A stretch of DNA of 64,000 nt from Candidatus Marinacidobacterales bacterium (GCA_965219415.1 CBDCNP010000002.1:4160001-4224000), one strand, 5' to 3'. Numbered from the stretch's first letter, positions 2,189 to 42,064 are shown. Notes: generated by a model not told the origin, from the letters alone. Made by a program: numbers and translations.

Positions 2189-2518
2189 CGGCGTACACCG
2201 GCATTGGATTCCGAGTTCAGCGATAAGCCGGGCAGTTAGCGATGCGCTCTTCGATCTCCGCTGCGATGTGCTGGTATTCCGAACCGCCGACACCTCCGAA
2301 GCGCTCGTGAAGCTCGGCTTCCGGGATACCTTCCGGTAGATCGGAGGCCCCCGGGAAGAAGTCGTCCACGCGGAAGCCCGTCGTGTCCGAAAACCCGAAC
2401 GGAGCCCGAAAGTTCGAATCCTAGAGGCGTTCTCGAAATTCGCAGAGACCAGCCGACGCGGCCCTTGGTCTGCGATAGGCGCTCTCGAGGGTGCTTCCGC
2501 CATCAAGTGTTGCTACGC

Positions 2519-2620
2519 CGTCCTGTGCCAAAACTCGGCCCTTTTGAAAGACCATGGCTGTAATTTAATGCACTGTAAAGTCTTAGTGTCATTTTGCCAA
2601 CACTTAATGGCGGAAGCACC
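2519..2620. mobile_element. Hybrid MITE type 1 (rve-type end + IS1-type end), 102 bp
   Basis: Runs CGTCCTGTGCCAAAACTC...GGCGGAAGCACC; second copy inverted at 13695-13796; preceded by a lone IS1-type end at 2490. Confidence 0.75.
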
Positions 2621-2950
2621 GCTGGAAACGGACTTACGGTGCGGCTAGTGAGGCACTCCCATATGAAACGGGGAGAAACAGATAGGCCGCGCCTACGGAG
2701 CACCGCGCCAGCCCTCGACCCTACCGCCGGTCGCAAACACAGACACTAAGCTGCTGATTTATGGCCTATTTCAAAAGGGCCGAGTTTTGGCACAGGACGC
2801 GACGCGCAACGCCCCTCTCATTCTGCCCGTCGCACGACCAAGAAGCCCCCACGAGACCAGCTCAGGGCTGGTGCCTAGAAGTCGATTAGGCGGGAACCTC
2901 GCCCGGCTCTGTATCCCCAAGGACAGTGAAAGAATCGGCCGTGATGGCAG

Positions 2951-5749
<2,799 letters not shown>

Positions 5750-5921: not shown

Positions 5922-6087
5922 GGTGCTTGCGCTGTTTACTGTTGGTAATGTGTACGCATCCCTTTGCAAAAAAGGCGCTTACGCTCCATTTAGCTCGCAG
6001 CGAAGGTCACGAGCGCTATTTTAGCTGTAATTTGATGCACTGTAAAGTCTTAGCGTCATCTCACCAACACTTAATGGCGGAAGCACC
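5922..6087 (+). mobile_element. MITE A1 (IS1-type ends), 166 bp
   Basis: GGTGCTTGCG...GGCGGAAGCACC; diverged copies at 17227-17404, 26724-26889, 39874-40039, 41722-41887, 57411-57576, 62515-62680. Confidence 0.85.
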
Positions 6088-6389
6088 GCGCTTTCATCGC
6101 CTGGCACGGGGTAACGTGTGCCTGACGAAATCTCGAAGCGCAACAGCCAACCGGGACCAGTCTGGCTACAATGACGCCAACTTGACGGTACCGTTGCTTG
6201 GCATGTCCTTATCACCGTGCTGTCCCTACCACCCCGCCAGAGGGATGTGCCTCATCAGATAGTCTGGCTACACATCCTGTTGCCTTAATATATCTAATTC
6301 TGTAAGTTATTTACAATAATAGTTTTCTACTACATCGACATAATTTAAATTAGTCATCATCACAAGTCACAGGCCCTGACGACGCATCC

Positions 6390-6567
6390 CGTCCTGTGCC
6401 AAAACTCGGCCCTTTTGAAATAGCCCATAAATCAGCAACTTAGTGTCTGTGTTTGCGGCCGTGCCAAGGGCCGAGCGCGAACAAACGACGAGATCATGCA
6501 GGCATGGTCCCGGGAGACCGGAGACCGATCAAGTTCGGGGCGCGCGGATGAATAAATAGAAGGCACA
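6390..6567. mobile_element. MITE B-G1, 178 bp, rve-type ends
   Basis: CGTCCTGTGCCAAAACTC...GAATAAATAGAAGGCACA; copy at 22359-22536; related G1 ends at 14258 and 28295. Confidence 0.8.
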
Positions 6568-6572
6568 GCGCC

Positions 6573-7943
6573 TTGTTTCGGAACGCCTTCGTCACCACTC
6601 CTCTGTGTTCGCCGTCGCGGGCGAGTTTCTTGACCGGACAATACGCCCGGGCACATGGCGTCTCGACAAACGCGAGCGCGCTCAGCCCACTCGTCGCTAC
6701 GTCCCCGAGTCTTCTTGAGAATGGAGGTTACGACACGGCCTTCATCGGGAAATGGCACATGGGAAACGACGATACGCCTAGACCGGGTTTCACGCATTGG
6801 GTGAGCTTCCGTGGACAGGGCTCGTACCGGGACCCCGAACTGAACATCAATGGCGAGCACGTGCCGACGCTGGGCTATTTGACGGACGTGCTCAACCATT
6901 ACGCAGTAGACTTCGTTCGCACTGCTGCGCGAGGGTTCCGGCCGTTTCTACTCTACCTTTCCCACAAGGCAGTCCACGGGCCGCTGGATCCACCCGACCG
7001 GCACACGGACCTGTACCGTGGCGCACCGGTTCCCTGCTCGCCCGGGTGCCAGGATACGCTAAAGGGCAAGCCAGCCCTGACGCTGACCAAGCCCCCGAGT
7101 CCCGGAGACGGACTCTCTGATGAAGCTATCCGCAAAAAATTGAGACTTCTGAAGTCGGTCGACGAGGGTGTGGGACGGATTCTCAGGACGCTGGCGCAGG
7201 AAGGAGTCCTAGACCAAACAGCCGTCATTCTCACGAGCGACAACGGGTTCTTCTTGCGGGAGCACGGTCTGCGTGACAAGCGCTGGGCATACGAGGAAGC
7301 GATCCGCATTCCACTCCTCGTGCGTTACCCTCCGCTCACACGTCCAGGGGCGAGAATCGACCAGATCGTCCTGAACGTGGACTTGGCCCCTACGCTGCTT
7401 GAACTTGGGGGTGTGCCCGTTCCTGCCGAGGTGCACGGTCGTTCGTTTTTGCCGCTCCTGAAAGGAAAGAAGGAAGGGTGGAGGGACATGTTCGCGGCCG
7501 AGTATTTCAGAGAGAGCCGTTTCCCACGCACCCCTACATGGGAAGCGCTCCGAACGGAGCGCTGGAAATACATTCGATACCCTGAGTTGGGTATGGAATA
7601 CGATGAACTCTACAATCTACGGAGCGATCCCTACGAACTCCGGAACGTGGTGAACGATATGAGATTGACAGACCTGCTGGAAAGACTTCGGAAAAGGCTG
7701 ACTCGGCTTCTAACATTTCCTCCGCGTGCTGCCTTCGACGATTCAGCCCTCAGCAGCAGCTCACCGGTGCTTCTGCTATCAAGTGTTGCACTGACGGCTT
7801 CGACTACTCTACTCGCTGAAAGTTCTGGCCATGGCCAAGACCGCTGTGAGGCCGTCTCCGGTTGTACTCTCGTGTCTCGAGTTGGTCGTGAGGTCAAAAT
7901 ATTCATGCGGCTTCCCGATGGTAGAAACGTAGCAACCCCGTGA
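6573..7943 (+). pseudogene. Sulfatase, 5'-truncated by a MITE
   Basis: CSPSRASFLTG (CxPxR), GKWH and SDNG motifs; begins right after the MITE end at 6567; the C-terminal tail reads into the end at 7887. Confidence 0.8.
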
Positions 7944-8026: not shown

Positions 8027-9226
8027 GGTGCTTCCGCCATCAAGTGTTGCTACGCGGCCGCGGGCAGTGGTACAGGTGCGGAAGAGAGCGGGTTGCGCGC
8101 CCCAGTGAGCACGAAAACCTCGATCCGCGACCACAAAGGAATCGTCGTCACCAAGAAGATGTCTCGAAAGGTGAGCCGTCGCGTGGTCAGACCGGCCTGC
8201 ATAGCCGGAGTTCGGATCTCACGTCCGAACTTCAGAGCTCCGTGCGGTCGGACGAAGTTGTAATAGCAACGGAGCAACTCCAGGTGCTCATTGAGCCTCT
8301 CCGTCGAGCGAGCGTGAGAAAGTATTCGTCTCGAAAGGTATGCCGAGCTTTGCCGGATGGTCAGATTCAACCGCTCGATGAACGACGTGTTCAATGTCGA
8401 GGAGTCCTCGGAGTTATTGAGCGCGTCTTCAAATCGCCACGCGGCTCCGTGCAGCGCTCTCCGTTCGACCTTGATGATGCGATCGTTCCTGCGCGTTTTT
8501 AGGACCTGGCCGTAGAGACACGCTGGACCGAAGAAGCGACGGATGACTTTCTGGTAGAATTCGAATCCATCCGTGACGATCAGGGGAAGACGTCCGAAAT
8601 TCATCCGTCTCGAAAGGTCGCAAAACAGAGCGTGAGTGTTCCGGTAGCTTCGCCTTCCCGTCACCGTCGATGGCCAGAGCCGAGACCAGACTTCGATTGT
8701 AACGAAGACCCAACTCGGTGTCTTCTTGTTGCCCGCGAACGTGCGAATCTCGTCGGCTTGAAGCTCTTCGGCAGCGAAGCCAGCGATCCTTCTGTGATTG
8801 AATCGACGACACACTTGGGCTGCCTTCTCGAGCCAGCGGGCGACGGTGTTCCAGGCAATCCCTTTGATCCGGGAAATCGAGGAAATGCTGACACCCTCGA
8901 CTCTGAGAGCGATGACCCCATCGAAAGTAGCTCTTCGATGTTGGAGACGGTAGTAGGGCTTGCCTTTCGTCGAAGAGAACGTCTTTCCGCACTCGCCGCA
9001 CCGGTATCGACGGCGTTTCCCGGACCTCGTTCTGTAGAATCCGTTGTGAATAATACTTCTGGAACCGACTTTTCCATACGACGGACATGCGGGATTGAGA
9101 CATCTGCGATTCTTCACTTCGGCTCGGCCCTGACGATGAGAGAACTGTGTCTTCAGAATTCTGGTTCAAACTCTAGCACGCGAACGGGTTACGCGGCAGC
9201 CACCAACACTTCATGGCGGAAGCACC
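8027..9226 (-). mobile_element. IS1-family insertion sequence, 1200 bp
   Basis: Terminal IRs GGTGCTTCCGCCAT(C/G)AAGTGTTG; one transposase ORF; no flanking duplication. Confidence 0.85.
8050..9117 (-). CDS. IS1-family transposase
   Basis: N-terminal Zn-ribbon cysteines, HTH, DDE motifs QADE / TDG / IERLNLTIRQ. Confidence 0.85.
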   Translation of the reverse strand: MKNRRCLNPACPSYGKVGSRSIIHNGFYRTRSGKRRRYRCGECGKTFSSTKGKPYYRLQHRRATFDGVIALRVEGVSISSISRIKGIAWNTVARWLEKAAQVCRRFNHRRIAGFAAEELQADEIRTFAGNKKTPSWVFVTIEVWSRLWPSTVTGRRSYRNTHALFCDLSRRMNFGRLPLIVTDGFEFYQKVIRRFFGPACLYGQVLKTRRNDRIIKVERRALHGAAWRFEDALNNSEDSSTLNTSFIERLNLTIRQSSAYLSRRILSHARSTERLNEHLELLRCYYNFVRPHGALKFGREIRTPAMQAGLTTRRLTFRDIFLVTTIPLWSRIEVFVLTGARNPLSSAPVPLPAAA

Positions 9227-9579: not shown

Positions 9580-9820
9580 GGTGCTTCCGCAATCAAGTGT
9601 TGCTACGCCGTGTTTGAATGCTAGTGTCAGCTGGCCTGCCTGTGTCGGCGAACGCCATTAATGATGTCGGCGCGCACACGAAGGTGTCCCTGAACGTCAG
9701 GCACCGTGTGGTCAGCCCAACCCGCATCGCCGAAAGAACTGCGTCTCTCGAAATCAGGCTTAAACTCTAGCACACGAGCGGGTTACGCGGCAGCCACCAA
9801 CACTTAATTGCGGAAACACC
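9580..9820. mobile_element. MITE A2 (IS1-type ends), about 240 bp
   Basis: Shares both ends with IS 8027-9226; copies at 17878-18121 and 11973-13664 (interrupted by IS110). Confidence 0.85.
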
Positions 9821-10773
9821 AGCGCGGCAGTGTCGGGGACCGCCTTCAGCAAGGCCTGCATCAGCATGACGTCCACCATCGAGGTCTCGTCAACGACCAG
9901 CAGGCCGCAATCGAGAGGGTTGTTGCCGTTGCGCTTGAACCCACCGCCCTTGGGATCGACTTCGAGTAGCCGGTGGATCGTTTTCGCCTCGAACCCGGTG
10001 GCCTCGGTCATCCGCTTGGCGGCGCGGCCGGTTGGGGCGCAGAGCAGCAGGGTCACGCCCTTGGCGGCCAGGATGCGCAGGATGGCGTTGACGATGGTCG
10101 TTTTGCCCACGCCCGGCCCGCCGGTGATGACCAATGCCTTGGAGGTCAGGGCTAGGCGAACCGCCTCGGCCTGGCTTGCCGCCAGCGACAGACCGGTCTT
10201 CCCCTCGACCCAGGGTAGCGCCTCGCCGGCATCGATATCCGGCCAAGGAAGCTTGCCGCCCGTAATCCGGAGAACCCTCTCGGCGATCACCCGTTCGGCA
10301 CGGTAGAGGCCGCCAAGGAATATACAGGGAGTTCCGGCAACCGCCGCAGCGACGACGGTGCCTTCTGCCAGTTCGAGGTCCAGCGCGTCTTGAACCAACT
10401 CCTTTGACACTTCCAGCAATTCGACGGCGAGCGGTGAAAGCTTTTCGGCAGGAAGGCCGCAATGACCGTCATCCATCGCCTCGGTGAGCGCATGGGAAAT
10501 CCCCGCGCGAACCCGGATCATGGCTGTTTTCTCGATGCCGAGCTTCATGGCGATCGTGTCGGCGGTCTTGAACCCGATGCCGCGAATATCTCGTGCAAGG
10601 CGGTACGGGTTCTCGGTCATGACCTGAACGGCATCCACGCCGTAGGTCTTGTAGATCCACACCGCGCGCGCCGTGCCGATGCCATGGCTGTGCAGGAACA
10701 CCATGATCTCGCGAACGATCTTCTGTTCCGCCCAGGCGTCGGTGATGCGTTTGGCACGCACACGGCCGATGCC
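9821..10773 (-). pseudogene. recD2: Internal fragment of a RecD2-like helicase
   Basis: ENPYRL...GIGFKTAD, Walker A GGPGVGKT, APTGRAAKR, VVDETSM; both ends abut MITEs. Confidence 0.88.
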
Positions 10774-10921
10774 CGTCCTGTGCCAAAGCTCGGCCCTTTT
10801 GAAATAGACCACAAATCAGCAGCTTAGACGCCCTTGGAATCCGCGCAGAATCCAGGGTATTTCGCGCCGCAGGGCTGACTTCCGACCCATTGGGCTGGCG
10901 GATGAATAAATAGAAGGCACA
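10774..10921. mobile_element. MITE B-G2, 147-148 bp, rve-type ends
   Basis: Copies at 24683-24829 and 63339-63485; partial copies at 9461-9579 and about 57295-57410. Confidence 0.8.
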
Positions 10922-11917
10922 ACTCCAAGACCGGCGCATATAATCGTAAATGTCTGGAGGAAACTGCTTCCGGAAGCGAGGGTGATCCAGAATCTCTGGA
11001 AAATCCAGGACACGGACGTAGGACTGGCGCATCTCCATCGTAGAGACGAAGTAGGGACCGCGGAGAATGTTCGACGAGGGACCCAGGGCCACCGGCTTCG
11101 CACCCCGTACGAGTAGCCTCATGTCCTCGTCGCTGTACTCGGATAATGGACTGGCTGCGAAGACAACGTGCAGTCTGTCAACACCGGCCCGAACCGCGGT
11201 GCGCATGGCGCTCACGTGCCGCGCCTCGGCGTCCACTCCAATGCCAGCCCGATGGGCGGCATCCACCAGCGCCTCCAACACCGGCAGTTTCCAAAATCCC
11301 CCGATTTGGATCTGATCGATGTTTGATGCGATGAGCTGTTCCGCGGCCTCGCGCGCCGCTTGTGGAGTCGTCAACCGATAGAAGTTCGAAACGCCGTCCG
11401 CGGCACGATCGCGTTCGGGGTGATTCTCGATGCTTCGCCCTGTCAGGTAGAGACGAGGACCGAGTCTCTTCCCCGATTCGATCGCCTCGCGAAGCTGCTT
11501 CTGTTCCTCGAGTGGACCGCTCGCATTCCGGAAGCTTGTGACACCGGCCATCAGATTGAGCTCCGCTACGATGGCCATGATCTCCGTCTTCCGATCCGCG
11601 AAGTGGGAAACGAACTCGCCAGGGTTCCCGGCTCCTATGTGAAGGAGATGACCGTGCGACTCCCAGAGTCCGGGCATGACCGTCATGCCATTGGTGTCGA
11701 TGACCCGCGCGCCAGAAGGAATGGCTATCGCTCCGACCCGACCGATTGCGTCGATTCGACTGCCCTTCACCAAGACGACGGCGTTGTCGAGAGGTGGACC
11801 TCCGTACCCGTCGACGAGCCTCCCCCCGGCTAGGGCAAGGGTTTCCGAGCGGGCATCTGCTGATGTGGTAAGCACACAAACGATAAGAACCGAGGCCGCC
11901 GATGTCGAGCGGATCAT
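10922..11917 (-). pseudogene. Amidohydrolase family protein, 3'-truncated
   Basis: Signal peptide, TVMPGLWESHGH motif; the frame runs into the MITE at 10921. Confidence 0.8.
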
Positions 11918-12073
11918 CGGGTCACACTCGCTCCATTATCGTCACCACGCCCTGACCACCACCGATGCAGAGGGTGCTTCCGCCATCAAGTGATGGAATG
12001 GACTCCTCCACTGACATAGACGGCATCGATGTGCCAAAGTCAGTCGAATACGCATCGAAAAGGAGGAGTCCAA

Positions 12074-13105
12074 ATGAAAGATACGACAATCGCTGTGGAT
12101 CTTGCAAAGAACGTCTTCGAGATTGCCATCTCGGGAGAAGCGGGGAAGGTGTCCAAGCAACTCCGTGTGAGTCGACCCAAATTGGTGTCGTTCTTTGCCA
12201 AACAGAGCGCTGCCACCGTGCTTCTCGAAGCCTGCGGCTCGGCTCACTTCTGGGCAAGGACGTTCCGAAGGTTGGGACACGACGTCGTCCTGCTCCCACC
12301 TCACCTCGTGAGGCCGTATCGACGCGGGAGCAAGAACGACCGCGCCGACACGAAGGCGTTGCTCGAGGCCTACAGGAACGAGGAGCTTCTTCCCGTACCC
12401 ATCAAGTCCGTGCACCAGCACACCCTCGCTGCGCTCCATCGCCTGCGCTCAGGATGGCTCTCCACACGGACCGCACGCATCAATGCCGTACGCGGGCTCC
12501 TGCGCGAACTCGGATTCATCATCCCAAAGGGCGCTCACTTCGTCGTGCCCGCCCTCTTCGAACTCGTCGAAGACGCTGATTCTGATTTGCCCGACGTGCT
12601 CCGTTCGCATCTCCGTGATGCCTGCTCCGAGATTCGAGAACTCAAGGACAAGTGCGCTAGCATCGAGCACGAGCTCAAGGCGCTCACCAAGCAGCTTCCT
12701 GAAGTCCAACGACTTCTCGCCATTCCCGGCATCGGACTTCTGGCCGCGACCGCCATCGTGGGCTTCGTCGGCGATCTTCGCCGCTTCCCATCGGGGCGCC
12801 GCTTCTCGAGCTACCTCGGCCTAGTTCCCAAGGAAAACTCCAGTGGCGACATTCGCCGCCTCGGACGCATCACCAAGCGTGGCGACTCCTACCTCCGTAT
12901 GCTCCTCACCCAGGGCGGGCGCGCCGTGCTCCGCGCGGCGAACGTCAGCAAGAGCCCGCCCGACAAGCTCCGCGCCTGGGCTCGGAAGGTCCACCGCTCG
13001 CGGGGACACAACAAGGCCGTGATTGCTGTCGCCAACAAACTCGCCCGGATCGTCTGGGCCGTCTCCACCCGCGAGAGTGAATTCCAGTCGCCGGTGGCCG
13101 CTTAG
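12074..13105 (+). CDS. IS110-family DEDD recombinase/transposase
   Basis: AVDLAK, LEAC, KNDRAD, GLVPKENSSG, AVANKLARI motifs; AGGAGG RBS. Confidence 0.95.
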   Translation: MKDTTIAVDLAKNVFEIAISGEAGKVSKQLRVSRPKLVSFFAKQSAATVLLEACGSAHFWARTFRRLGHDVVLLPPHLVRPYRRGSKNDRADTKALLEAYRNEELLPVPIKSVHQHTLAALHRLRSGWLSTRTARINAVRGLLRELGFIIPKGAHFVVPALFELVEDADSDLPDVLRSHLRDACSEIRELKDKCASIEHELKALTKQLPEVQRLLAIPGIGLLAATAIVGFVGDLRRFPSGRRFSSYLGLVPKENSSGDIRRLGRITKRGDSYLRMLLTQGGRAVLRAANVSKSPPDKLRAWARKVHRSRGHNKAVIAVANKLARIVWAVSTRESEFQSPVAA

Positions 13106-13149
13106 ATTTAGAGGCTCCACTTTCGTGTTTTCCTTTTTCCCTTCCAAAA

Positions 13150-13340
13150 GAGGCTGCGACGATACCCATCCAACTGATGGCGTACCGGTCGGACCGGCGC
13201 GGGGTCAAGCCAATAGCAACACTGGCCCTAAGAGGTCGTTCAAAGTGATTGGCTCCTCGCGCGCGGATTTTCCATCATGGCCCGGAGCACCCAAGACGCT
13301 CCTCACTGAGGCCGAAGATACGTTTGCAGTCTGACCCACT
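13150..13340 (+). ncRNA. Predicted bridge/seek RNA (ends approximate)
   Basis: Two internal loops whose segments match the target (TAGCAACACT, AAGTG) and the donor junction (TTCCATCAT, AGATA). Confidence 0.75.
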
Positions 13341-13796
13341 CGTCACGACGCGATGGATGCGCAGCTTCGATGGAAGATTTATTAAGAAAGGGGCGTGACT
13401 AGAAAGAAAGGGGCTTGACTAGAGGAGTCCAGATATGTTGCTACGCCATGTTTGAATGCTAGTGTCAGCTGGCCTGCCTGTGTCGGCGAATGCCATTAAT
13501 TAAGGATGTCGGCGTGCACACCAAGGTGTCTCTGAACGTCAGGCACCGTGTGGTCAGCCCAGCCCGCATCGTCGAAAGAACTGCGTCTCTCGAAATCGGG
13601 CCCCCAAACTCTAGCACACGAGCAGGTTACGCGGCAGCCACCAACACTTAGTGGCGGAAGCACCCAAAATAGCGCTCATGACGCTGCTTCCGCCGGTGCT
13701 TCCGCCATTAAGTGTTGGTAAAATGACGCTAAGACTTTACGGTGCATTAAATTACAGCCATGGTCTTTCAAAAGGGCCGAGTTTTGGCACAGGACG

Positions 13797-23678: not shown

Positions 23679-23848
23679 CGGGACCGACTAGGCGCTAGTA
23701 GCCGACTTCACGGCCGTGGTGACGTTGCGTTTACTTCGTCCTCGTCCGATAGAATGCTCTGCCAAATTGTTCACCGACCAGCTGGTCTCGGAACCAGTTT
23801 TCGGGGGGAGGTCCGCCGGATTTTCCTAAAGATTAAAGGTCGAGCGAT

Positions 23849-28824: not shown

Positions 28825-28872
28825 CGATACGCCTCTTCCTCGGGTCGGGAGCGATTCCCGACGGTGTTATTG

Positions 28873-29298
28873 CTATGCGGGCTTGAGATCGTGCTCCAAG
28901 GTCAAACGGTTCTTGCCCCCCACGAACTCGTAGGAGATGCGGCTGGCGAAGTTCTTGACCAGATGGAGGCCCAAGCCGCCCACGTTACGAGCTTCCAGCG
29001 GCGCCGCGGTGTCCGGGTCTGTGTTGAGGGTCGGGTCGAACGGACTCCCATTGTCCTCCATCGTTAGGATCAGGATATCGCACTTGACCTTCAAGTGGAT
29101 ATCGATCCTGGGATCGACCCCGGCCTCGAAGCTGCCGTGAGTCACGGTGTTCGTGATTAACTCGTCCAGTTCCAGGTTGATGGCGAAAACTTTCAGTGCG
29201 GGCACGTTATTGGCCTCTCCGAAATCTTCAACCATGGTCGCCAGATCGCGGAGCTCGGACAGCCGGACGGGTAGTGTGACACGTAATTCATCAGACAT
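28873..29298 (-). CDS. RsbW-like anti-sigma factor kinase
   Basis: ELITN, DNGSPFDP, GGLGLHLV. Confidence 0.9.
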   Translation of the reverse strand: MSDELRVTLPVRLSELRDLATMVEDFGEANNVPALKVFAINLELDELITNTVTHGSFEAGVDPRIDIHLKVKCDILILTMEDNGSPFDPTLNTDPDTAAPLEARNVGGLGLHLVKNFASRISYEFVGGKNRLTLEHDLKPA

Positions 29299-29395
29299 AG
29301 TGTTGGTTGCTCCTTGACGATTTAAGCCGTTCTAACCTCCACAGCATTCCGCGTGCGATCACGCAGGGAAACGAACCTTCACGATTCCGTGAAGC

Positions 29396-32355: not shown

Positions 32356-33665
<1,310 letters not shown>

Positions 33666-33668
<3 letters not shown>

Positions 33669-35209: not shown

Positions 35210-35393
35210 CGTCGTGTCCAAAAATACAAACGAACTCTAAGACCCACGCGCCGGCCCGTCGCCGAGTTCATCTATCATTATCATGGAGAGCTCAGCCATC
35301 AAAGGCTTGGCAACGCGTTTGTGTTTTTGGACACGACGGGACCGGTCTATTTCAAAAGGGCCGAGTTTTGGCACAGGACGGGGAGCTTAAAAG

Positions 35394-36383
35394 ATGTTCG
35401 GACCCTATGTCCATAATGTCGATCCGATCATTGCCGAAGTGGGCGGCGTCTATCTCTGGTGGTATGGGCTTAGCTATTCGCTGGGATTCCTGCATTTGCA
35501 TCTGTTTCTGCGCCGCCACAGGCTTCGGCTCGGACTCACTTCCAGAGACGTATACACCCTCACTCTTTTCATCGTGGTGGGCGTTTTGGTTGGGGCGCGT
35601 CTCATCGAAGTCGCATTCGACGAGTGGCCCTTCTACAGCGCGCACCCTACCCTCATTCCGGCATACTGGCTTGGGGGCCTGGCGTCTCACGGGGTCCTTC
35701 TCGGAGCGACTGTAGCCGTCACCTCCTTCGCCTTGCTCTATCGAAAGGACCTGCTCGCGCTGTTCGATGCAGTCGTGATCCCCGGTTCGTTTCTGATGGG
35801 AATGGGAAGGATCGGGAACTTCATCGACGGCCAGATCGTGGGTGCTCTCACCGATGTGCCGTGGGGCGTGCGGTTTCCCGACGCAGTTGGAATCCGGCAT
35901 CCGGTGGTTCTCTATGACGGCATCAAGAATCTTCTGCTGGTGCCTTTCCTCCTCCGTGTTCGAAAGATGAACCCAACGCCGGGGGCAACCGCAGCTCGTT
36001 TCGTCTTCTGGTATGCGTTCTTGCGTGTATTCATTGATCTGTTTCGCGACTATCCGACTCACCGTCTGGCTCTCGGGACCGGGCAGACCCTGAACCTCAT
36101 CATGGTGTCGATCGGTGTCGTTTTTTTGATCCGATCGCGCATTCGGCGTCTGGGTCGGCTGCGAAGTGGTGTCAGAGAGGCACTGGAGGTGGAAGCCCCG
36201 CCTGAAAAAGCGCCATTCGTGTTACAGAGAATCGTACTCGTTGTTTTACTGGTGTGCTGTCTGACGTTGCCCAGCAACTGGACACAGAACATACCGGAAC
36301 GATACGGGAAGCGACACGCCGGACTCGAACACTCGTGGCTCTACCCAGACATCAACACGTCGGCGCCGACCGATGAACCCTAG
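35394..36383 (+). CDS. lgt: Prolipoprotein diacylglyceryl transferase
   Basis: WYGLSY, GARL, GGLASHG, GRIGNFIDG, RHPVVLY. Confidence 0.88.
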   Translation: MFGPYVHNVDPIIAEVGGVYLWWYGLSYSLGFLHLHLFLRRHRLRLGLTSRDVYTLTLFIVVGVLVGARLIEVAFDEWPFYSAHPTLIPAYWLGGLASHGVLLGATVAVTSFALLYRKDLLALFDAVVIPGSFLMGMGRIGNFIDGQIVGALTDVPWGVRFPDAVGIRHPVVLYDGIKNLLLVPFLLRVRKMNPTPGATAARFVFWYAFLRVFIDLFRDYPTHRLALGTGQTLNLIMVSIGVVFLIRSRIRRLGRLRSGVREALEVEAPPEKAPFVLQRIVLVVLLVCCLTLPSNWTQNIPERYGKRHAGLEHSWLYPDINTSAPTDEP

Positions 36384-36460
36384 AGGGGAGTCGCCGACAA
36401 CGACGACTGGTGGTTTTGAGCGAGGTGTGACAGGTTGACTAAGCCTCGGAGGAAAAGACC

Positions 36461-37051
36461 GTGAGCAATCGAACCGTGACGCAGCTGGGCGCCATCGTGC
36501 TGATGGCGTCGTCGATAGTGCCCCTATCGGCGAAAACCCAGACGGTAAAGGGAAACACATACGCGGACACGGCAGGGGTAGGTGTCCGGACTCTCATGTT
36601 GATCGGTGCCGGACTTCGTGAGCGGTGGTGGCTTGACGTCTACACGATGGGCGCGTATGCCGAGAACCGCACCTGCGATCCGCAGATGCTGATCTCGATG
36701 GATGGGGCAAAATCCCTCCGTATCGATCTGCTCCGCGACGTCGACGCGAAGAATATGGCCGACGCGCTCGAAGACGCTCTCGATAAGAACTTGCCGCCCG
36801 GCGGCTCCCCCGGTATCCGATCTCAGATCGATACCGTCCTAGGCTATTTTGAAAAGGACCTGGAGAAGGGGAACAGCATGGAGTTGACCTACGTTCCCGG
36901 CGTGGGTACGGCGCTAATGCAGAACCGGGAGCAGCAGGGAGCCGCGATGCCGGGCAGGGGGTTTGCCGACGTCCTGTGGGCTTCCTATTTCAGTTCCGAA
37001 ACTTGCTGTTCGGGGCTCAAGAAGCAGATTCTCGACCATTGTTCCCAGTGA
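36461..37051 (+). CDS. Secreted chalcone-isomerase-like protein
   Basis: Signal peptide; GAGLRERWWLDVY. Confidence 0.75.
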   Translation: MSNRTVTQLGAIVLMASSIVPLSAKTQTVKGNTYADTAGVGVRTLMLIGAGLRERWWLDVYTMGAYAENRTCDPQMLISMDGAKSLRIDLLRDVDAKNMADALEDALDKNLPPGGSPGIRSQIDTVLGYFEKDLEKGNSMELTYVPGVGTALMQNREQQGAAMPGRGFADVLWASYFSSETCCSGLKKQILDHCSQ

Positions 37052-37206
37052 GAGGTTCGCAGGAGGATGGATGTCTTCACGACCAGGCAAGTCGAGGAGC
37101 TTCGCAATGAGCTGTTAGCGGCGACTGTAAATTGCACATTTGTGGCGGACGACAATTGCACACTCGGCACCCCGTCCTGTGCCAAAACTCGGCCCTTTTG
37201 AAATAG

Positions 37207-38464
37207 TGAAGTGACCCCGCTTTCGTGGACAGGTTAAGAGTTAGGGATCAAGCGTCGCGATAGTACCTCCTTTCGAATTGGATAGGCGAGCAATAGTCGA
37301 TGGCGGAGTGTCGTCGTCGCGGGTTGTACCAGCCTTCGATGAAATCGAAGGTCGCCATGCGCGCCTCAGCGTGGTAGCGAAACGACCGGCGCTCGATCAG
37401 CTCGCACTCGAGCGTCGCGAAGAAGCTCTCGCACATCGCATTGTCGTAACAGTCCCCGACCGAACCCATCGACGGTCGCACCCCGGCCTCCCGGCATCGC
37501 TGGCCGAACGCTAGTGACGTGTACTGCGTGCCCTGGTCCGAGTGATGGATGACGTCGCCGGGCTTGCGTTGGAACAGCGCCATGTCGAGGGCGCTCAAGA
37601 CGAGCGACGTCCGCAGGTGGGTAGCCATTGCCCATCCGACGATGCGTCGGCTGAAGGCGTCCAGCACGACGGCGAGGAACAAGAAGCCCGACCACGTGGG
37701 CACGTAGGTGATATCGGCGACCCACAGGCGGTCGGGCCGGTCCACCTCGAAATTCCTGTCGACGAGATCGGGGGCGGGACGGGCGTCGTCACAGCGAATC
37801 GTAGTGTGCGCCCTCTTGCGCCGGTGAACACCTTGAATGCCAGCCTCGCGCATCAGCCGCGCTACACGCTTGCGTGAGACGTGGAGCTCGTGTGTCTCTC
37901 GTAGCTCGTGGAGGATCCTCGGCGCGCCGTACGTGCTCCGCGACGCGGTGTGAATCGCCCGGATCTTCTCAAGCAACTCCGCATCCGACACCGCGCGGGC
38001 CGACGGGGCACGCTCAAGCCACGCATAGTAGCCGCTGGCGGAGACGTCCAGCAGTCGGCACATCGTGGCAACCGGTAGTGAATCCTGGTTCGCCCTCACG
38101 AATCGGAAGGCTTCGGTGGTACCGACTCGGTCTCCCGAGCGAACCAGGCCGCGGCTTTTGAGAGGATCTCCCGCTCCAACCGTAGTTGACGGTTCTCCCG
38201 TCGCAGGCGGCGGAGCTCCGCACGCTCCTCACTCGTCAGACCGTCCTGCCTGCGACCCTCGTCGAGATCCGCCTGGTTCACCCAGTTCCGGATCGTCTGG
38301 CCCGAGGGCTCAAACTCTCGCGCCAGCTCTTCGGAGCCGCGGCCAGCTCGCACCAGCTCTACCATTTGGCGCCGGAACTCGGCCGCGTATCTGTTTCCCT
38401 GCTTTGACATCGTGGACTCCTGTCTCCCAAAGGATTAGGTGTCCACGAAAGCGGGTCAAGTCCA
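37207..38464 (-). mobile_element. IS3-family element, copy 2
   Basis: Near identical to 20248-21505 (two substitutions seen); 3-bp duplication TAG. Confidence 0.95.
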
Positions 38465-38662
38465 TAGGCCATAAATCAGCAACTTAGTGTCTGTGTTTGC
38501 GACCGGGCCAAGGGCCGTGGGCTTTACAATCGTCTTGGGCGGGCGGGTCGTCACCATGCAGATGACCACCTAGTCGAGAGCGAATATCGAAGCATGTTCC
38601 TGAAGCGGTTTCCACGCTACGCCGGTCGAGCCCGCCGAGGGGCTACCGTCGCCGGCGACCAT

Positions 38663-39733
38663 CTACGCGGCACGGCAGTAGTAGTTGAGAATGCCCCCAA
38701 GTCGCTCTCGCGACACGATGGGGCCAGCGCTATTCGCGCTTGCCGGCAGAGGAGTGAGGAGCTCGTTGCCGAGACCTTGGTGGTTCCGTTCGGTGTGATA
38801 GTGCACGACGTATTCGCTTACCGCTGTGCGCAGGTGTCGCTCACTGAGAGGTACGAAGCGGTCGAGACACTCTCGACGTATGGAGAGAACGAATCTTTCC
38901 GCGTATGCGTTCAGATTCGGACTATTGGCGGGAAGGCGCAGGGGCTTCACGCCTGAATCTCTCAACAGCCCACGTACCGCCTCGGTGAATAGCGGGTCCC
39001 GGTCGTGGATGAGGTATCGCTTGCCAAGGAGGAAACCATCCCACAGGTCAGTGAGGTTTCTTGCCACCTGCTTCATCCACTCCCCGTTGGGGTCCGACGT
39101 TATCCCACCGATGCACACACAGCGAGTGGCGATATCGATGACAAACAGGACATGGTAGCGGACGAGCCCGAACGGGTTCACAACCTCGACGGTGAACAGG
39201 TCTGTCGCAGCGATGGCGCCCCAATGAGCCTTGATGAAGGTGCTCCACGACATGCTCTTGCCCCGCTCCGGGGCAGGTGCGATACCGTGGTCGGCGAGGA
39301 TCCTCTTGATGGTGTTGCGTCCGAGTTCATGTCCTAGGTTCTTGAGTGCGCCTCGCAGGCGCGTATATCCCCACGTCGGGTTCTCCTGCGCCACGCGCAC
39401 AATGAGCTCACGGATGTCCTTCGCCGTCGGAGGTCGGCCTGGGCTCCGGTTCTTGCTGCCATCGTACTTGGCTGCGATGAGGCAGCGGTACCAACGCACA
39501 AGCGTAGCGGGTGTGGCAACGGACGCAATCTGGGCCAGCGCCTCGCGGCCCAAAGCCTGGGCCTTGACCGCGAGCCTGCGCCGCTCGTCGTCCGAGAGAC
39601 TGAGACGCTTGCCCCGAAGCCCGGCTCGGAGCACACGGTTCTCCTCTTGCTGGTAGTCGATCACACCCTGCTGCTGGCGGTTGACCCAGCCAGCTAGAAC
39701 GAGCAGTAGGAATTGCACGTGGTACGTCATCAT
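38663..39733 (-). CDS. Integrase-core (rve) DDE transposase
   Basis: [35 protein letters not shown]. Confidence 0.9.
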
Positions 39734-40039
39734 GGATCTGAAGATAACACCCTCGGGCCAGACGATTGTAAAGCCTACGGCCCTTGGTCCGGTCGCAAAC
39801 ACAGACACTAAGCTGCTGATTTATGGCCTATTTCAAAAGGGCCGAGTTTTAGCACAGGACGGGGTGCTTCCGCGGTGCTTGCGCTGTTTACTGTTGGTGA
39901 TTGTGTACGCATCCCTTTGCAAAAGAGGCGCTTACGCTCTATTTAGCGCGCAGCGAAGGTCACGAGCTCTATTTTAGCTGTAATTAATGCACCGTAAAAT
40001 CTTAGCGTCATCTCACCAACACTTAATGGCGGAAGCACC

Positions 40040-40285
40040 CCGTTGCTATTACAACTTCGTCCGACCGCACGGAGCTCTGAAGTTCGGACGTGAGATCCGA
40101 ACTCCGGCTATGCAGGCCGGTCTGACCACGCGACGGCTCACCTTTCGAGACATCTTCTTTGCGACGACGATTCCTTTGTGGTTGCGGATCGAGGTTTTCC
40201 TGCTCACTGGGGCGCGCAACCCGGTCTCTTCCACACCTGTACCACTGCCCGCAGCCGCGTAGCAACACTTGATGGCGGAAGCATC
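40040..40285 (+). mobile_element. 3' fragment and end of the IS1-family element
   Basis: YYNFVRPH...PAAA stop + IR; a shorter copy lies at 60055-60189. Confidence 0.85.
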
Positions 40286-40514
40286 GGGACGGTTTGTGAG
40301 ACCGGGGAACCATACATCGTTTTTCTTTGACAGGAATCTTAGGACATCACCGATTCATGCACCAACACCGTTCTGGCTTGCTAACTTCGTGTAACGCCAC
40401 TAAAATAGTGCCGTTTGAGTTTCGCTCGAAGCTCGAGCACCAACCTCCGGTCGCCCACGCGGTGGGTGCACCGGCTAACGTTGAGTTAGCTTCAAAACGG
40501 AGGAGACTTGAGGA

Positions 40515-40814
40515 ATGGCGAAAAAACCCATGACCAAAACCCAAATCGTGGCCCAGATGTCGGAAGCGATGCAGGTTCCGAAAAAGCAGGCCGCGGCATG
40601 GTTCAAGTCGATTGCCGATCTCGCGGCGAAGGAGACGAAGCGGACGGGCCAGTTCATCATTCCCGGAATTGGAAAACTCGTGAAGGCGCAACGAAAGGCG
40701 CGCAAGGGACACAACCCCCGGACCGGCGAACAGATTCGAATCCCGAAAAAGACGGTAGTCAAGTTTCGAGTAGCGAAAGCTTGCCTGGACGCCGTCGTCT
40801 CACCGAAGAAGTAG
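40515..40814 (+). CDS. hup: HU/IHF-family DNA-binding protein
   Basis: MTKTQIV, IPGIGKL, ARKGHNPRTGEQI, VKFRVAK. Confidence 0.92.
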   Translation: MAKKPMTKTQIVAQMSEAMQVPKKQAAAWFKSIADLAAKETKRTGQFIIPGIGKLVKAQRKARKGHNPRTGEQIRIPKKTVVKFRVAKACLDAVVSPKK

Positions 40815-40834
40815 CTCACAAGCGACGCCTCGGA

Positions 40835-41476
40835 ATGTCCTACCGAACGACGGATGCACGCTGGCGACGTGCCCGGCGTAAAAAGCGGGCGAAGGCGGAC
40901 ACTGAGAATCCGACGGAAACCAAAGCATTGCAGGTTCCAGAACCCCCACCAATTCGGCCGGAGGAGCCAACGGGCGAGGGAGATGTTGGCGAACGGGTTG
41001 CTACCCTTGGACATTCCTTCGCCAGCGAGTCGATGATGCACCACTACAACCTATCGACGCACCACGTGTTCCAGATGCCACGCTCGGATGTTCGCTCCGA
41101 GACATTGGCTGCGTTGCAGTCCATCATCGAGGTGGCCACCGGCGGGCAAGCGGTGCCGTTACCCGGATTCCCCGAATACTTTCTAAGCATCAGGAACACC
41201 TGGGTCGGCGCAGTGGGGTGGCTCATCCAGGGACCCGAGCACCGGGTCATGGTTCAGTGCGTGACAGCCTGGACGATTGAGGGCGCAGCAAAGGGCGTGC
41301 GCTGGTTGGGGACGGAGCTACCGGAGGAGTTGGACTTGCCTTGTTGTCTGGTCAAGCTTGGACTACCCCTGCTTAAGGATCCCGGTGCGGCAAGTTGGCT
41401 TGATGATGCCGAGCGGTGCATTAGCTGGGCGATGCTACCCACGCCTCCTCCGAGGAATGGCACAAGGTTGCCCTGA
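40835..41476 (+). CDS. Hypothetical protein
   Basis: ORF after hup; the reading frame is conserved in the diverged duplicate at 33666-33947. Confidence 0.55.
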   Translation: MSYRTTDARWRRARRKKRAKADTENPTETKALQVPEPPPIRPEEPTGEGDVGERVATLGHSFASESMMHHYNLSTHHVFQMPRSDVRSETLAALQSIIEVATGGQAVPLPGFPEYFLSIRNTWVGAVGWLIQGPEHRVMVQCVTAWTIEGAAKGVRWLGTELPEELDLPCCLVKLGLPLLKDPGAASWLDDAERCISWAMLPTPPPRNGTRLP

Positions 41477-42064
41477 TGGGTGTATCGCCTGAGCTTGGGA
41501 ATCAGACGCAACTCCGGGCGGGACTTCATCGCACCCTTCTTTAATCAACCCGTCACGTGCTGCTCATCTCAATTCCCTGTTCTTCCCTGTTATTCATGGA
41601 TTCTAAGCCAAGACCGGATAGCTCCAAACTGCACCATCCGCACCTCGTCCTGTGGCAAAACTCGGCCCTTTTGAAATAGACTATAAATCAGTAACTTACT
41701 GTCTGTGTTAGCGACCGGGCCGGTGCTTGCGCTGTTTGCTGTTGGTGATGTGTACGTATCCCATTTCAAAAGAAGCGCTTACGCTCCATTTAGCGCGCAG
41801 CGAAGGCCGCAGGCGCTATTTGCGATGTAATTTAATGCACTGTAAAGTTTTAGCGTCATCTCACCAACACTTAATGGCGGAAGCACCACGCACGGATTTC
41901 CTCCGTTTTGCTGGATCCTTGTAAGGGCGCAATAATCTGTGATGCCGAGAGGCGTTAAGCAGATGACGTTCGTCGGCACACGCAATCCAACTGAAACCAG
42001 CATCAAACACCTCTAGCGGCGACCAACACTTAATGGCAGAAGCATCCGTTCCGACCATGGTCCT

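What the first reader, a model, noticed from the sequence alone, without database searches (positions are those of the whole stretch)
2379..42050. Cassette-like array: unrelated genes and fragments joined by ~80 transposon ends
Seen: every 0.3-3 kb a MITE or lone end separates DNA that is unrelated on its two sides. Examples are amidohydrolase | MITE | recD2 piece | MITE | HhH piece | IS1, and higBA (21632-22358) and lgt plus chalcone isomerase (35381-37172) each bracketed closely by outward ends. Interrupted host genes do not resume across an element, and I found no 8-bp duplication around any single IS1-type copy. The pattern resumes at 56.5-64 kb, while 42-56.5 kb is normal. Inference: this is not simple MITE insertion. 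It may be an integron-like gene accumulation zone built by DDE transposases. Alternatives are repeated adjacent deletion in a hotspot, or misassembly.
Basis: partly seen in the sequence, partly recalled or inferred. Interest (0 to 1): 0.8.

Follow-up and report, generated by a model that had tools for sequence, protein, structure and literature searches.

The report
Transposon nest that shuffles gene modules
This stretch is a real, dense pile-up of transposon ends from about ten families, in which elements land in each other's ends and cut and rearrange DNA. What remains is a patchwork of single genes and gene fragments; it is a scrambled mobile-DNA zone and does not work like an integron.

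Summary
I count 70 motif-defined termini of 10 IS/MITE families in 2379-42050, 2 in 42051-56460 and 18 in 56461-64000. Truncated genes do not resume across elements.

IS1-like (A) and IS481-like (B) elements lack target duplications genome-wide: 1 of 150 A166 MITEs, 2 of 31 IS_A, 0 of 11 IS_B and 1 of 70 DB150. A young IS3 in the same regions keeps them in 27 of 36 copies.

A does make 8-bp duplications, but the two halves sit on different copies. B ends are insertion hot spots for A, D and IS3. An IS110 sits at one site of the A end in 29 of 29 copies.

Cargo pieces have 97-100% twins elsewhere in the genome, and 92-100% copies in other genera. Every copy lies in a different context.

There is no integrase in the window. 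I could not test long-read support.

Best reading: an IS nest built by end-targeted, non-resolving (IS26-like) transposition plus deletion. It is part of about 2.3 Mb of such DNA in this genome.

The parts
2377..2806 (.). Mosaic of end fragments. It holds a C-type end (2377-2489), an A stub (2490-2517), a 38-nt B stub (2518-2555), half of an A166 MITE (2555-2620), a ~106-bp repeat (2621-2726) and a B right end (2710-2806).
   Evidence: Alignment-end pile-ups. Termini. The repeat starting at 2621 has 12 or more copies.
2951..5749 (-). Intact-looking TonB-dependent receptor gene (932 aa). It is cargo that also occurs at 96-99% identity elsewhere in this genome and in three other genomes.
   Evidence: Pfam Plug, barrel and CarboxypepD_reg domains. 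Own-genome twins. Copies in G002, G003 and G018 at 96-98%.
5922..6087 (+). A166 MITE, a 166-bp non-coding derivative of the IS1-like element. Other copies in the window are at 17227-17391, 26724-26889, 39874-40039, 41722-41887, 57411-57576 and 62515-62680.
   Evidence: 150 full copies genome-wide; it shares the 23-26 terminal nt with IS_A. 1 of 150 has a target duplication.
6388..6568 (+). BD181 short element with a B terminus at one end and a D terminus at the other. A second copy lies at 22357-22536.
   Evidence: 37 full copies, 1 of 37 with a duplication.
6573..7943 (+). Sulfatase gene lacking its 5' part. It starts directly at the D terminus.
   Evidence: The Pfam Sulfatase match starts at profile position 38 of 301. 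D terminus at 6567/6568.
8027..9226 (-). Full-length IS_A (1200 bp), an IS1-family-like element encoding a 355-aa transposase (8050-9117). It has no target duplication.
   Evidence: NCBIfam IS1 82.3 bits (cut-off 100) and a weak rve_3 hit. 31 full copies. Flanks shown.
9580..9820 (+). A244 MITE. Its right terminus cuts recD2. Another copy lies at 17878-18121.
9821..10771 (-). Internal fragment of a RecD2-type helicase gene, cut on both sides by element termini.
   Evidence: Pfam HHH_RecD2, AAA_19 and AAA_30. The gene continues on both sides in G003, G014 and G018 at 92-100% identity. The adjoining part of another copy is at C3:3462069-3463128.
10772..10921 (-). DB150 short element (B terminus to D terminus). 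Other copies lie at 24683-24831 and 63339-63487.
   Evidence: 70 full copies at a median 98% identity, 1 of 70 with a duplication.
10922..11917 (-). Amidohydrolase gene lacking its 3' end. The reading frame runs on into the DB150 element.
   Evidence: Pfam Amidohydro_1, weak. D terminus at 10921. Twin at C3:3048742.
11973..13664 (+). A244 MITE carrying an IS110-family element (11997-13446; transposase 12029-13105) at a fixed site in the A terminal repeat.
   Evidence: NCBIfam IS110 302.6 bits. 29 of 29 full copies have the same left flank inside an A end.
14510..15319 (-). Short-chain dehydrogenase gene (cargo, full-length by domain).
   Evidence: Pfam adh_short 2-190 of 195.
15755..17167 (-). 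Ammonium transporter gene (cargo, intact). It lies between a repeat block ending at 15668 and the A terminus at 17227.
   Evidence: TIGR03644 515.9 bits over 1-404 of 404.
17471..17853 (+). F element, the 3' end of an IS256-like (Mutator-family) element. Truncated copies lie at 19172-19298 and 34156-34326.
   Evidence: Pfam Transposase_mut 296-371 of 379. 40 copies with a conserved right flank.
18122..19298 (-). Peroxiredoxin module: the gene at 18215-19066 plus the first 127 nt of F. It is bounded by the A terminus at 18121 and the B terminus at 19297.
   Evidence: NCBIfam peroxiredoxin. The same ~1.6-kb module is present at 98-100% identity in 6 contexts across 4 genomes.
20248..21505 (-). 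IS3a, a young IS3-family element with ORFs at 21137-21451 and 20289-21140. This copy has no duplication. The copy at 37207-38464 has a 3-4 bp duplication.
   Evidence: NCBIfam IS3 340 bits. 36 full copies at 99.8% identity, 27 of 36 with a 3-4 bp duplication.
21724..22340 (-). higB-higA toxin-antitoxin pair, between the outward-facing B termini 21633 and 22357.
   Evidence: Pfam HigB-like_toxin and HTH_3. Termini.
22537..23681 (-). 3' part of an IS_B copy with a broken transposase gene (two ORFs).
   Evidence: Pfam HTH_32 and rve_3 split over two ORFs..
23849..26075 (-). Two cargo genes, DinB-family (23849-24400) and AIM24/GYF (25047-26075). They are separated by E, DB150 and C end fragments (24625-25006).
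27364..27864 (+). C-terminal part only of an endonuclease/exonuclease/phosphatase gene.
   Evidence: The Pfam Exo_endo_phos match covers profile 133-225 of 225.
28486..31412 (-). Cargo block: STAS protein, HATPase_c_2 protein and a 589-aa HAMP-domain protein. Different parts have twins at different loci.
   Evidence: Pfam. 28296-29432 is 100% identical at C3:5652673. 29175-31412 is 99.6% identical at C2:71118.
32356..33668 (+). IS3b, a second IS3-family element with its frameshift pseudoknot.
   Evidence: Rfam ALIL at 32682-32798, 82 bits. NCBIfam IS3.
35384..37170 (+). Module of lgt plus a chalcone-isomerase-like gene, between B termini 35382 and 37171.
   Evidence: Pfam LGT and Chalcone_3. 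The twin at C3:4776329-4778175 shares both B junctions and then diverges 23-38 nt inside the B ends.
37171..39865 (-). Full IS_B (transposase 38663-39808, 381 aa) interrupted by IS3a (37207-38464). This is a clean nested insertion with a short duplication.
   Evidence: Pfam HTH_32 and rve_3; NCBIfam IS481 97.6 bits, below the cut-off of 224. Empty site and duplication.
40284..41522 (+). Unknown repeated segment (about 7 copies) with a 322-aa ORF that has no family match.
42065..44602 (+). 845-aa membrane protein gene (YfhO-like C-terminus). It is the first gene of the end-free stretch, but it is itself a shared module.
   Evidence: Pfam. 99% identical in G002 and G003, and an own twin at C3:4784549.

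Best explanation
The region is an insertion-sequence nest. It is part of about 2.3 Mb of IS/MITE-saturated, duplicated DNA in an 8-Mb acidobacterial genome; relatives' records are titled Candidatus Marinacidobacterales. Three processes build it.

(1) New elements land preferentially in the terminal repeats of resident elements, so ends pile up next to ends and genes between them are often spared. This step is shown.

(2) The two dominant families, an IS1-like element (A, with MITEs A166 and A244) and an IS481/IS3-like element (B, with short derivatives DB150, BD181 and B317), do not leave simple insertions. A makes an 8-bp target duplication, but its two halves end up on different element copies. 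That is the outcome expected of replicative transposition that is not resolved: deletion, inversion or replicon fusion, as described for IS26. The pattern is shown; the mechanism is inferred. Each hop therefore joins an intact terminus to new DNA and loses or removes what lay on the other side. This leaves solo ends, hybrid MITEs and truncated genes.

(3) The DNA between two ends behaves as a block that is copied and reshuffled within the genome. Such blocks also occur at 92-100% identity in other genera, so much of the cargo is circulating mobile DNA and not eroded native genes. The sharing is shown; the route of transfer is unknown.

The result looks like a cassette array, but it has no dedicated recombinase, no recombination site and no expression logic.
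For: Density and compartment:
- 70 termini of 10 families lie in 2379-42050.
- Genome-wide there are 670 A, 527 B, 242 D and 228 C termini.
- They are clustered. The median 50-kb bin of C3 has 0 A/B ends, and contig C1 (2.07 Mb) has 3.
- 46 of 114 C3 bins (2.30 Mb) have 8 or more termini.
- In most of the IS-rich 100-kb bins, about 15-30% of the DNA is in more than 20 copies and about 15-45% in 2-5 copies, against 0-7% low-copy in the end-poor bins up to 1.8 Mb.

No same-copy duplication for A and B:
- Copies with a flanking repeat of 3 bp or more: A166 1 of 150, IS_A 2 of 31, A244 1 of 14, IS_B 0 of 11, B317 0 of 14, DB150 1 of 70, BD181 1 of 37. All are at shuffle level, and no duplication appears at any offset.
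- Positive control in the same regions: IS3a has 3-4 bp duplications in 27 of 36 copies and clean empty sites for 21 of 36.
- By the same criterion 7 of 150 A166, 6 of 70 DB150 and 0 of 31 IS_A gave spanning hits. On inspection none was a clean empty site.
- Age alone does not explain this: DB150 copies are 98% alike.

Split 8-bp duplication for A:
- Among 591 distinct A junctions, complementary flank pairs peak at exactly k=8. There are 41 pairs against 2 in the control. k=7 gives 17 against 27 and k=9 gives 2 against 4.5.
- The pairs are mostly the two halves of two sites inside B ends.
- At the site at B positions 5-12, 17 A termini of all A types are found: 14 on the B-stub side and 3 on the interior side. 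For the 8 A166 copies whose other end is visible, 0 of 8 carries the matching half.

End targeting:
- Outer flanks that map into the first 60 nt of a B end (roughly 0.4% of the genome, my estimate): A 25 of 670, plus 14 at the 12-nt stub; D 19 of 242, 13 of them at one position; IS3a 18 of 113.
- The IS110 element is at one site of the A end in 29 of 29 copies.

Cargo:
- 11 window segments have 97-100% twins, each at a different locus, ending at element termini.
- The recD2 fragment is cut from a gene that continues in three other genomes. A differently cut copy lies 0.7 Mb away.
- The ~1.6-kb peroxiredoxin module occurs in 6 different contexts in 4 genomes at 98-100%. Different elements abut it within 12 bp on the left, and different termini are inserted about 20 nt into the same B stub on the right.
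- Genes in the end-free part of the window reach only 64-85% identity to relatives.

Literature: passages of PMC7986276 state that replicative intramolecular transposition gives deletion or inversion, loses flanking repeats, and can explain the assembly of resistance-gene clusters.
Against: - No transposition intermediate or product was observed directly. The replicative, non-resolving mechanism is inferred from end states only.
- E. coli IS1, the namesake of the family, mostly leaves simple insertions with duplications (recalled). A would therefore have to behave unlike its closest named family.
- For B, C and D no duplication of any length was found, even in split form. The test has no power below about 6 bp, so B's mechanism is open.
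- A elements are old (A166 median 91% identity to the reference copy, IS_A 95%). Part of the loss of duplications could therefore be later rearrangement.
- The 14:3 bias for keeping the B-terminal side is not predicted by random replicative events. It needs an extra assumption, local hopping from A ends that already lie inside B elements.
- The genome is a metagenome-assembled one (contamination estimate 8.45%), and I could not map long reads.
- tRNA genes do occur in IS-rich bins, 10 against 26 in the rest of C3. The compartment is therefore not purely foreign DNA.
Confidence: 0.65

Rival explanations
1. Dedicated gene-capture zone. Discrete modules, each a gene plus flanking end stubs, are excised as circles or translocatable units. 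Transposases then insert them next to resident ends, so the array grows by accretion of functional modules, as in IS26 arrays or integrons.
For: - The peroxiredoxin module has near-constant limits in 6 contexts across 4 genomes.
- The lgt module twin shares both B junctions.
- Many cargo genes look intact: the TonB receptor, amt, prx, higBA, SDR, DinB, AIM24 and lgt.
- Insertion is targeted at ends.
- IS26 arrays likewise lack flanking repeats (passages of PMC7986276).
Against: - At least 4 cargo pieces are dead fragments, cut at different points in different copies.
- Modules are bounded by stubs of different families, not by one full element in direct repeat.
- No A-bounded unit with a matching 8-bp duplication was found. 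The only close pair is explained by a repeat.
- There is no recombinase in the window.
- Cargo orientation is mixed.
- No circular form was seen. The contigs available could not show one.
Confidence: 0.13
2. Ordinary simple insertions that were later scrambled by homologous recombination between the hundreds of dispersed copies. On this view the missing duplications reflect age and not mechanism.
For: - A166 and IS_A are diverged, at 91% and 95% identity to the reference copy.
- The one family with intact duplications, IS3a, is the youngest, at 99.8%.
- The split halves of A's duplication lie megabases apart, in mixed orientations.
Against: - DB150 is young (98%) and still has 1 of 70 duplications.
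- 166-bp repeats about 9% diverged are poor substrates for recombination (general knowledge). Yet 149 of 150 would have to be recombined, while 1258-bp IS3a copies at 99.8% identity kept 27 of 36.
- Hybrid ends show breakpoints at transposon termini and not inside homologous stretches.
Confidence: 0.1
3. One ancestral locus shortened by repeated adjacent deletions only.
For: - Truncated genes abut intact termini.
- Two copies of the peroxiredoxin junction differ by 9 bp next to the same A166 terminus.
Against: - Homologues of neighbouring cargo lie at scattered loci in this genome and in G003: TonB at C3:2.26 Mb, recD2 at C2:0.32 Mb, prx at C3:2.15 and 2.68 Mb.
- In three relatives the sequence matching window 19412-19625 lies next to recD2, on the opposite side from its position in the window.
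- Cargo is duplicated, which deletion cannot produce.
Confidence: 0.05
4. Assembly or binning artefact. The contig is stitched across repeats shared by several co-occurring genomes.
For: - The genome is metagenome-assembled, with an 8.45% contamination estimate.
- The same IS and cargo occur at 95-100% identity in other genomes. Such sharing is what could mislead an assembler.
- Contig C1 carries almost none of the A/B ends.
Against: - A 3956-bp block covering window 2518-6473, which holds several element junctions by the map, is 98% identical in G002.
- Junction sequences recur in independent assemblies with small, sensible differences.
- Several relatives with the same kind of regions are listed with one contig (G001, G018).
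- The repeats here are 0.1-1.4 kb.
- IS3a at 99.8% identity is on all three contigs.
- Short contigs of two runs match stretches of the window without a mismatch, but they bridge almost no junction.
Confidence: 0.05

Closest known systems
IS26 / IS6-family arrays and pseudo-compound transposons in resistance plasmids
   Same: - Arrays of unrelated genes and fragments separated by copies of one element.
- Individual copies lack flanking 8-bp repeats.
- The arrays are explained by replicative, cointegrate-forming transposition with intramolecular deletion or inversion, and by insertion next to resident copies (passages of PMC7986276).
- An 8-bp duplication length.
   Different: - The transposases here are IS1-like and IS481/IS3-like, not IS6.
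- Most separators are MITEs, solo ends and hybrid stubs of about 10 families, not full elements in direct repeat.
- The scale is about 2.3 Mb of chromosome, not a plasmid region.
- The cargo is not resistance genes.
- No translocatable unit was shown.
IS1 of E. coli (adjacent deletions, cointegrates)
   Same: - The best family hit of the A transposase is IS1, with an N-terminal zinc-finger hit.
- About 24-nt terminal repeats and an 8-bp duplication.
- IS1 is known for adjacent deletions and cointegrates (recalled; PMC7986276 mentions IS1 as using alternative pathways).
   Different: - The score is below NCBI's cut-off (82 against 100).
- The transposase is a single 355-aa ORF.
- Practically no copy is flanked by its own duplication, unlike E. 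coli IS1 (recalled).
IS4321/IS5075-type IS110/IS1111 elements that target terminal repeats of Tn21-family transposons (recalled)
   Same: The IS110-family element here sits at one fixed position inside the terminal repeat of the IS1-like family in 29 of 29 copies.
   Different: The target is an IS1-like repeat in an acidobacterium. The guide-RNA basis was not examined.
Integrons
   Same: Superficially, a row of short gene-sized units separated by a recurring sequence.
   Different: - No intI-type recombinase is in or near the window.
- The separators are transposon termini of many families.
- Cargo includes fragments and is not co-oriented.
IS-expanded genomes of host-associated bacteria (e.g. 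Amoebophilus asiaticus, search listing and abstract of PMC3196728; Orientia, recalled)
   Same: A very high load of IS and derivatives, gene fragments and rearranged repeats.
   Different: Here the load is confined to compartments, with large IS-free stretches. The elements and cargo are shared at 92-100% identity between genera.

Membership tests
Integron | Adjacent intI tyrosine recombinase | tested here: not met
   PF00589 search of the whole genome found 13 matches, none in C3:4160001-4224000. The nearest on C3 are at 2,869,273 and 5,479,237.
Integron | Cassettes separated by attC-type recombination sites of one kind | tested here: not met
   The separators are termini of 10 IS/MITE families. 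No attC model was run.
Integron | Co-oriented, mostly complete promoterless genes | tested here: not met
   By my reading, 11 of 15 cargo genes are on the minus strand. At least 4 are fragments.
IS1 family (element A) | Transposase matches the IS1 family model above its cut-off | tested here: inconclusive
   NF033558 82.3 bits against a cut-off of 100. It is the best hit, ahead of ISL3 at 31 bits and IS481 at 26 bits. The zinc-finger domain scores 18.7 against a cut-off of 28.
IS1 family (element A) | Terminal inverted repeats and an 8-9 bp target duplication (lengths recalled) | tested here: inconclusive
   Inverted 24-nt termini are present. An 8-bp duplication is detectable only as halves on different copies. 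Same-copy duplication: 2 of 31 IS_A.
IS6/IS26 family | IS6-type transposase | tested here: not met
   No IS6 model appeared among the NCBIfam hits of the A or B transposases. Only the behaviour resembles IS26.
IS481 family (element B) | Transposase matches the IS481 model above its cut-off | tested here: not met
   NF033577 97.6 bits against a cut-off of 224. HTH_32 and rve_3 domains are present.
IS481 family (element B) | Short target duplication | tested here: not met
   0 of 11 IS_B, 0 of 14 B317 and 1 of 70 DB150.
IS3 family (IS3a) | IS3 transposase, two ORFs, 3-4 bp duplication | tested here: met
   NF033516 340 bits against a cut-off of 160. ORFs at 21137-21451 and 20289-21140. 27 of 36 copies have a 3-4 bp duplication.
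IS110 family (11997-13446) | DEDD transposase, no inverted repeats, sequence-specific target | tested here: met
   NF033542 302.6 bits against a cut-off of 140. 29 of 29 copies have an identical left flank in an A end. Absence of inverted repeats was not examined.
MITE (A166, A244) | Short, non-coding, shares terminal repeats with an autonomous element, many copies | tested here: met
   Lengths of 166 and 244 bp. The termini match IS_A over 23-29 nt. 150 and 14 full copies.
MITE (A166, A244) | Flanked by the target duplication of the parent family | tested here: not met
   1 of 150 and 1 of 14.

The most novel reading that the evidence does not exclude
The IS1-like and IS481-like families, with their MITEs, are obligately non-resolving transposons that also aim at each other's terminal repeats. 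Every hop then fuses, deletes or inverts DNA at an existing end. Together they form a self-reinforcing shuffling compartment on the megabase scale. Single-gene modules bounded by end stubs are assembled and copied there, and exchanged at near identity between different genera of the same order. This would be a chromosomal, transposase-only counterpart of IS26 arrays and integrons.
Probability: 0.25. Interest if true: 0.7.

Novelty: new variant of a known kind. Interest (0 to 1): 0.45.

Why it matters
If the reading holds, most of the size difference and plasticity of these large acidobacterial genomes would come from a few transposon families that never make clean insertions. It would also give a natural, non-clinical example of IS26-like array building by unrelated transposases.

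It also suggests a reason why the elements stay confined to compartments: they target each other's ends.

In practice, gene fragments and duplicated modules in such regions should not be counted as native metabolic capacity in metagenome-assembled genomes. Near-identical modules shared between genera also put binning and assembly at risk.

Tried and rejected
- **Long-read support.** The runs found are kept only as short contigs. Laid on 9001-29000, the listed pieces are 310-1520 nt. By the 31-nt rule almost none bridges a junction; one does, X11 record 18 across 15410|15411. Consecutive junctions therefore could not be tested.
- **Depth and cover.** Depth differs between cargo segments, and some segments lack cover in two runs. 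By the tool's own caveats neither can be interpreted, and I draw nothing from them.
- **Habitat.** Several runs labelled sponge metagenome hold small shares, and one holds 0.24 of the sampled words. None of these was laid, so this is only a hint.
- **An 8-bp match at two A termini.** The 8 bp next to A terminus 2620 also lie next to A terminus 17227. This suggested a 14.6-kb segment captured between two ends. I rejected it as evidence, because the flank at 2621 is the first base of a ~106-bp repeat with 12 or more copies.
- **Composite A-bounded transposons.** I searched for units with matching duplications and found none.
- **Empty-site test for window repeat blocks.** It gave 0 of 30, which is uninformative where flanks are unique.
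- **Cassette limits in relatives.** I first read BLAST limits of window pieces in relatives as cassette limits. For recD2 this was wrong, because the relatives carry the whole gene.
- **** timed out. I repeated it without the slow step.
- **Literature.** A search for 'Marinacidobacterales' found no paper. Searches on sponge symbionts and insertion sequences found only general statements. I read passages of PMC11410982, which mention abundant transposases. The search gave nothing on single-ORF IS1 relatives.
Full report
**Observation.** The window is G000:C3:4160001-4224000 of an 8.05-Mb, 59% G+C genome in three contigs. I defined termini by alignment-end pile-ups and then by 24-nt motifs. On that basis the window holds 90 termini of 10 families: 70 in 2379-42050, 2 in 42051-56460 and 18 in 56461-64000. 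Shuffled sequence gives 0-1.

The named examples check out:
- higBA lies at 21724-22340.
- lgt plus a chalcone-isomerase-like gene lies at 35394-37051.
- The region also holds an amidohydrolase piece, a RecD2 piece and an IS1-like element.

There is one slip. The helix-hairpin-helix piece and the RecD2 ATPase piece are one continuous 957-bp fragment.

**The elements.**
- A is a 1200-bp element with a 355-aa transposase. Its best named family is IS1, below the cut-off. It has 31 full copies, plus the MITEs A166 (150 full copies) and A244 (14).
- B is a 1435-bp element with an HTH_32 plus rve_3 transposase, nearest IS481/IS3 but below the cut-offs. It has 11 full copies and about 530 ends. Most of those ends sit in short derivatives: DB150 (70 full copies), BD181 (37) and B317 (14). 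B317 is itself a chimera that contains half an A166.
- Other families are C, D, E, I and J ends, F (the 3' end of an IS256-like element), two IS3 elements (one with the ALIL frameshift pseudoknot) and an IS110 element.

**Insertion signatures.** A young IS3 (IS3a, 99.8% identity among 36 copies) behaves classically. 27 of 36 copies have 3-4 bp duplications, and 21 of 36 have clean empty sites elsewhere in the genome. So duplications and empty sites are detectable here, including inside the IS-rich regions.

A and B behave differently:
- Copies with a flanking repeat of 3 bp or more: 1 of 150 A166, 2 of 31 IS_A, 1 of 14 A244, 0 of 11 IS_B, 0 of 14 B317, 1 of 70 DB150 and 1 of 37 BD181.
- No duplication appears at any offset.
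- No clean empty site was found. The spanning hits, 7 of 150 A166 and 6 of 70 DB150, align on one side only or are self-overlaps.

A does cut its target with an 8-bp stagger. Among 591 distinct A junctions, flank pairs that are reverse complements over exactly k bases peak at k=8, with 41 pairs against 2 in an offset control. Neighbouring k values stay at control level. Most of these pairs are the two halves of two sites inside B ends.

At the site at B positions 5-12 I found 17 A termini from every kind of A element, so these were independent events. 14 keep the 12-nt B stub and 3 keep the B interior. In 0 of the 8 A166 copies whose other end is visible does that end carry the matching half. 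The two products of one A insertion are therefore regularly separated.

**End targeting.** B ends make up roughly 0.4% of the genome by my estimate. Outer flanks that map into them:
- A: 25 of 670, plus the 14 stub cases.
- D: 19 of 242, 13 of them at one position.
- IS3a: 18 of 113.

The IS110 element has the same left flank inside an A end in 29 of 29 copies. Overall, 20-33% of termini abut high-copy DNA, against 13% of C3.

**Cargo.**
- Intact-looking genes: a TonB-dependent receptor, a short-chain dehydrogenase, an ammonium transporter, a peroxiredoxin, higBA, a DinB-family protein, an AIM24 protein, a STAS/kinase-like pair, a HAMP protein, lgt and the isomerase-like gene.
- Fragments: the sulfatase, RecD2, amidohydrolase and nuclease genes.

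Eleven window segments have 97-100% twins elsewhere in the genome, each at a different locus, and the similarity ends at element termini.

Pieces of the window also occur at 92-100% nucleotide identity in genomes of other genera and families of the same order. Genes in the end-free part of the window reach only 64-85%.

Two cases show what happens:
- **RecD2.** Three relatives carry the whole gene. The window copy is cut by an A terminus on one side and a B terminus on the other. A second, differently cut copy overlapping it by 122 bp lies at C3:3.46 Mb.
- **Peroxiredoxin.** A module of about 1.6 kb (A166, the gene, about 410 nt of F and about 20 nt of a B end) is 98-100% identical in six contexts in four genomes. 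On the left, an A244, an A166 or a D terminus abuts it within 12 bp. On the right, D, C or another terminus is inserted at nearly the same point of the B stub.

Neighbouring cargo in the window is not neighbouring in relatives.

**Genome scale.** A and B ends are almost absent from C1 (3 ends) and from most of C3, where the median 50-kb bin has 0. They fill 46 of 114 bins (2.30 Mb), mainly 4.1-5.7 Mb. In most of those regions, about 15-30% of the DNA is high-copy and about 15-45% is in 2-5 copies. tRNA genes still occur there, 10 against 26 elsewhere on C3.

**Mechanism.** The simplest account has three parts:
- Transposition is aimed at resident ends. This is shown.
- A, and probably B, transpose replicatively without resolution. 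Each event gives a deletion, an inversion or a fusion, not a simple insertion. This is inferred from the separated 8-bp halves, the intact termini joined to truncated partners, and the contrast with IS3a.
- The DNA between ends is copied and exchanged as blocks. The copies are shown; the route is not.

This is how IS26 arrays are explained (passages of PMC7986276).

**Rivals.** I considered four:
- Module capture through circular units.
- Later scrambling by homologous recombination. The young DB150 and the retained IS3a duplications argue against this.
- Deletion of one ancestral locus. This is contradicted by non-collinearity and by the duplicates.
- Misassembly.

**Integron test.** None of the 13 tyrosine-recombinase matches of the genome is in the window. 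The separators are transposon ends. Cargo is mixed in strand and partly dead.

**Limits.**
- The genome is metagenome-assembled (contamination estimate 8.45%).
- The public runs that hold the stretch are available only as short contigs, which cannot span the repeats.
- Support for the junctions comes from their recurrence in other assemblies.
- The mechanism of B is open.
- The bias for keeping the B-terminal side is unexplained, apart from a local-hopping assumption.
- Supplementary files of the papers were not available and were not needed for any claim here.

Noticed in passing
window 11997-13446; 29 copies genome-wide: An IS110-family element (99.9% identical copies) sits at one fixed position of the terminal repeat of the IS1-like family. 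This holds whether the host end belongs to a full IS_A or to an A244 MITE, and it is true of 29 of 29 copies.
   Followed up: partly
whole genome (C1, C2, C3): A and B ends are confined to compartments. C1 (2.07 Mb) has 3 ends. C3 has long end-free stretches and about 2.3 Mb of saturated bins. IS3a and F occur on all three contigs.
   Followed up: partly
G001 (same genus), listed matches only: In the single-contig relative G001, the listed matches to these elements fall mostly within about 110 kb (6.22-6.33 Mb) plus the contig start. The nest may therefore be far smaller there, and may account for part of the genome-size difference. 556 matches were not listed, so this is tentative.
   Followed up: no
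window 13695-13798, 2518-2620, 21508-21633, 57662-57787: Short hybrid units have an A terminus at one end and a B terminus at the other, and are present in many copies. The 317-bp B-ended MITE contains half an A166.
   Followed up: partly
window 40284-41522: A segment present in about 7 copies carries a 322-aa ORF with no Pfam or NCBIfam match.
   Followed up: no
window 32682-32798: An ALIL frameshift pseudoknot (82 bits) lies inside the second IS3-family element.
   Followed up: no
Four runs of coded organisms from four studies hold 0.56-0.67 of its sampled words. This hints at a host-associated habitat but does not establish it.
   Followed up: no
L001-L080: Relatives of the IS1-like transposase (61-95% identical) are found in many copies in MAGs titled Candidatus Marinacidobacterales, Vicinamibacterales and Bryobacterales. 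A few, at 51-56%, occur in other phyla.
   Followed up: no
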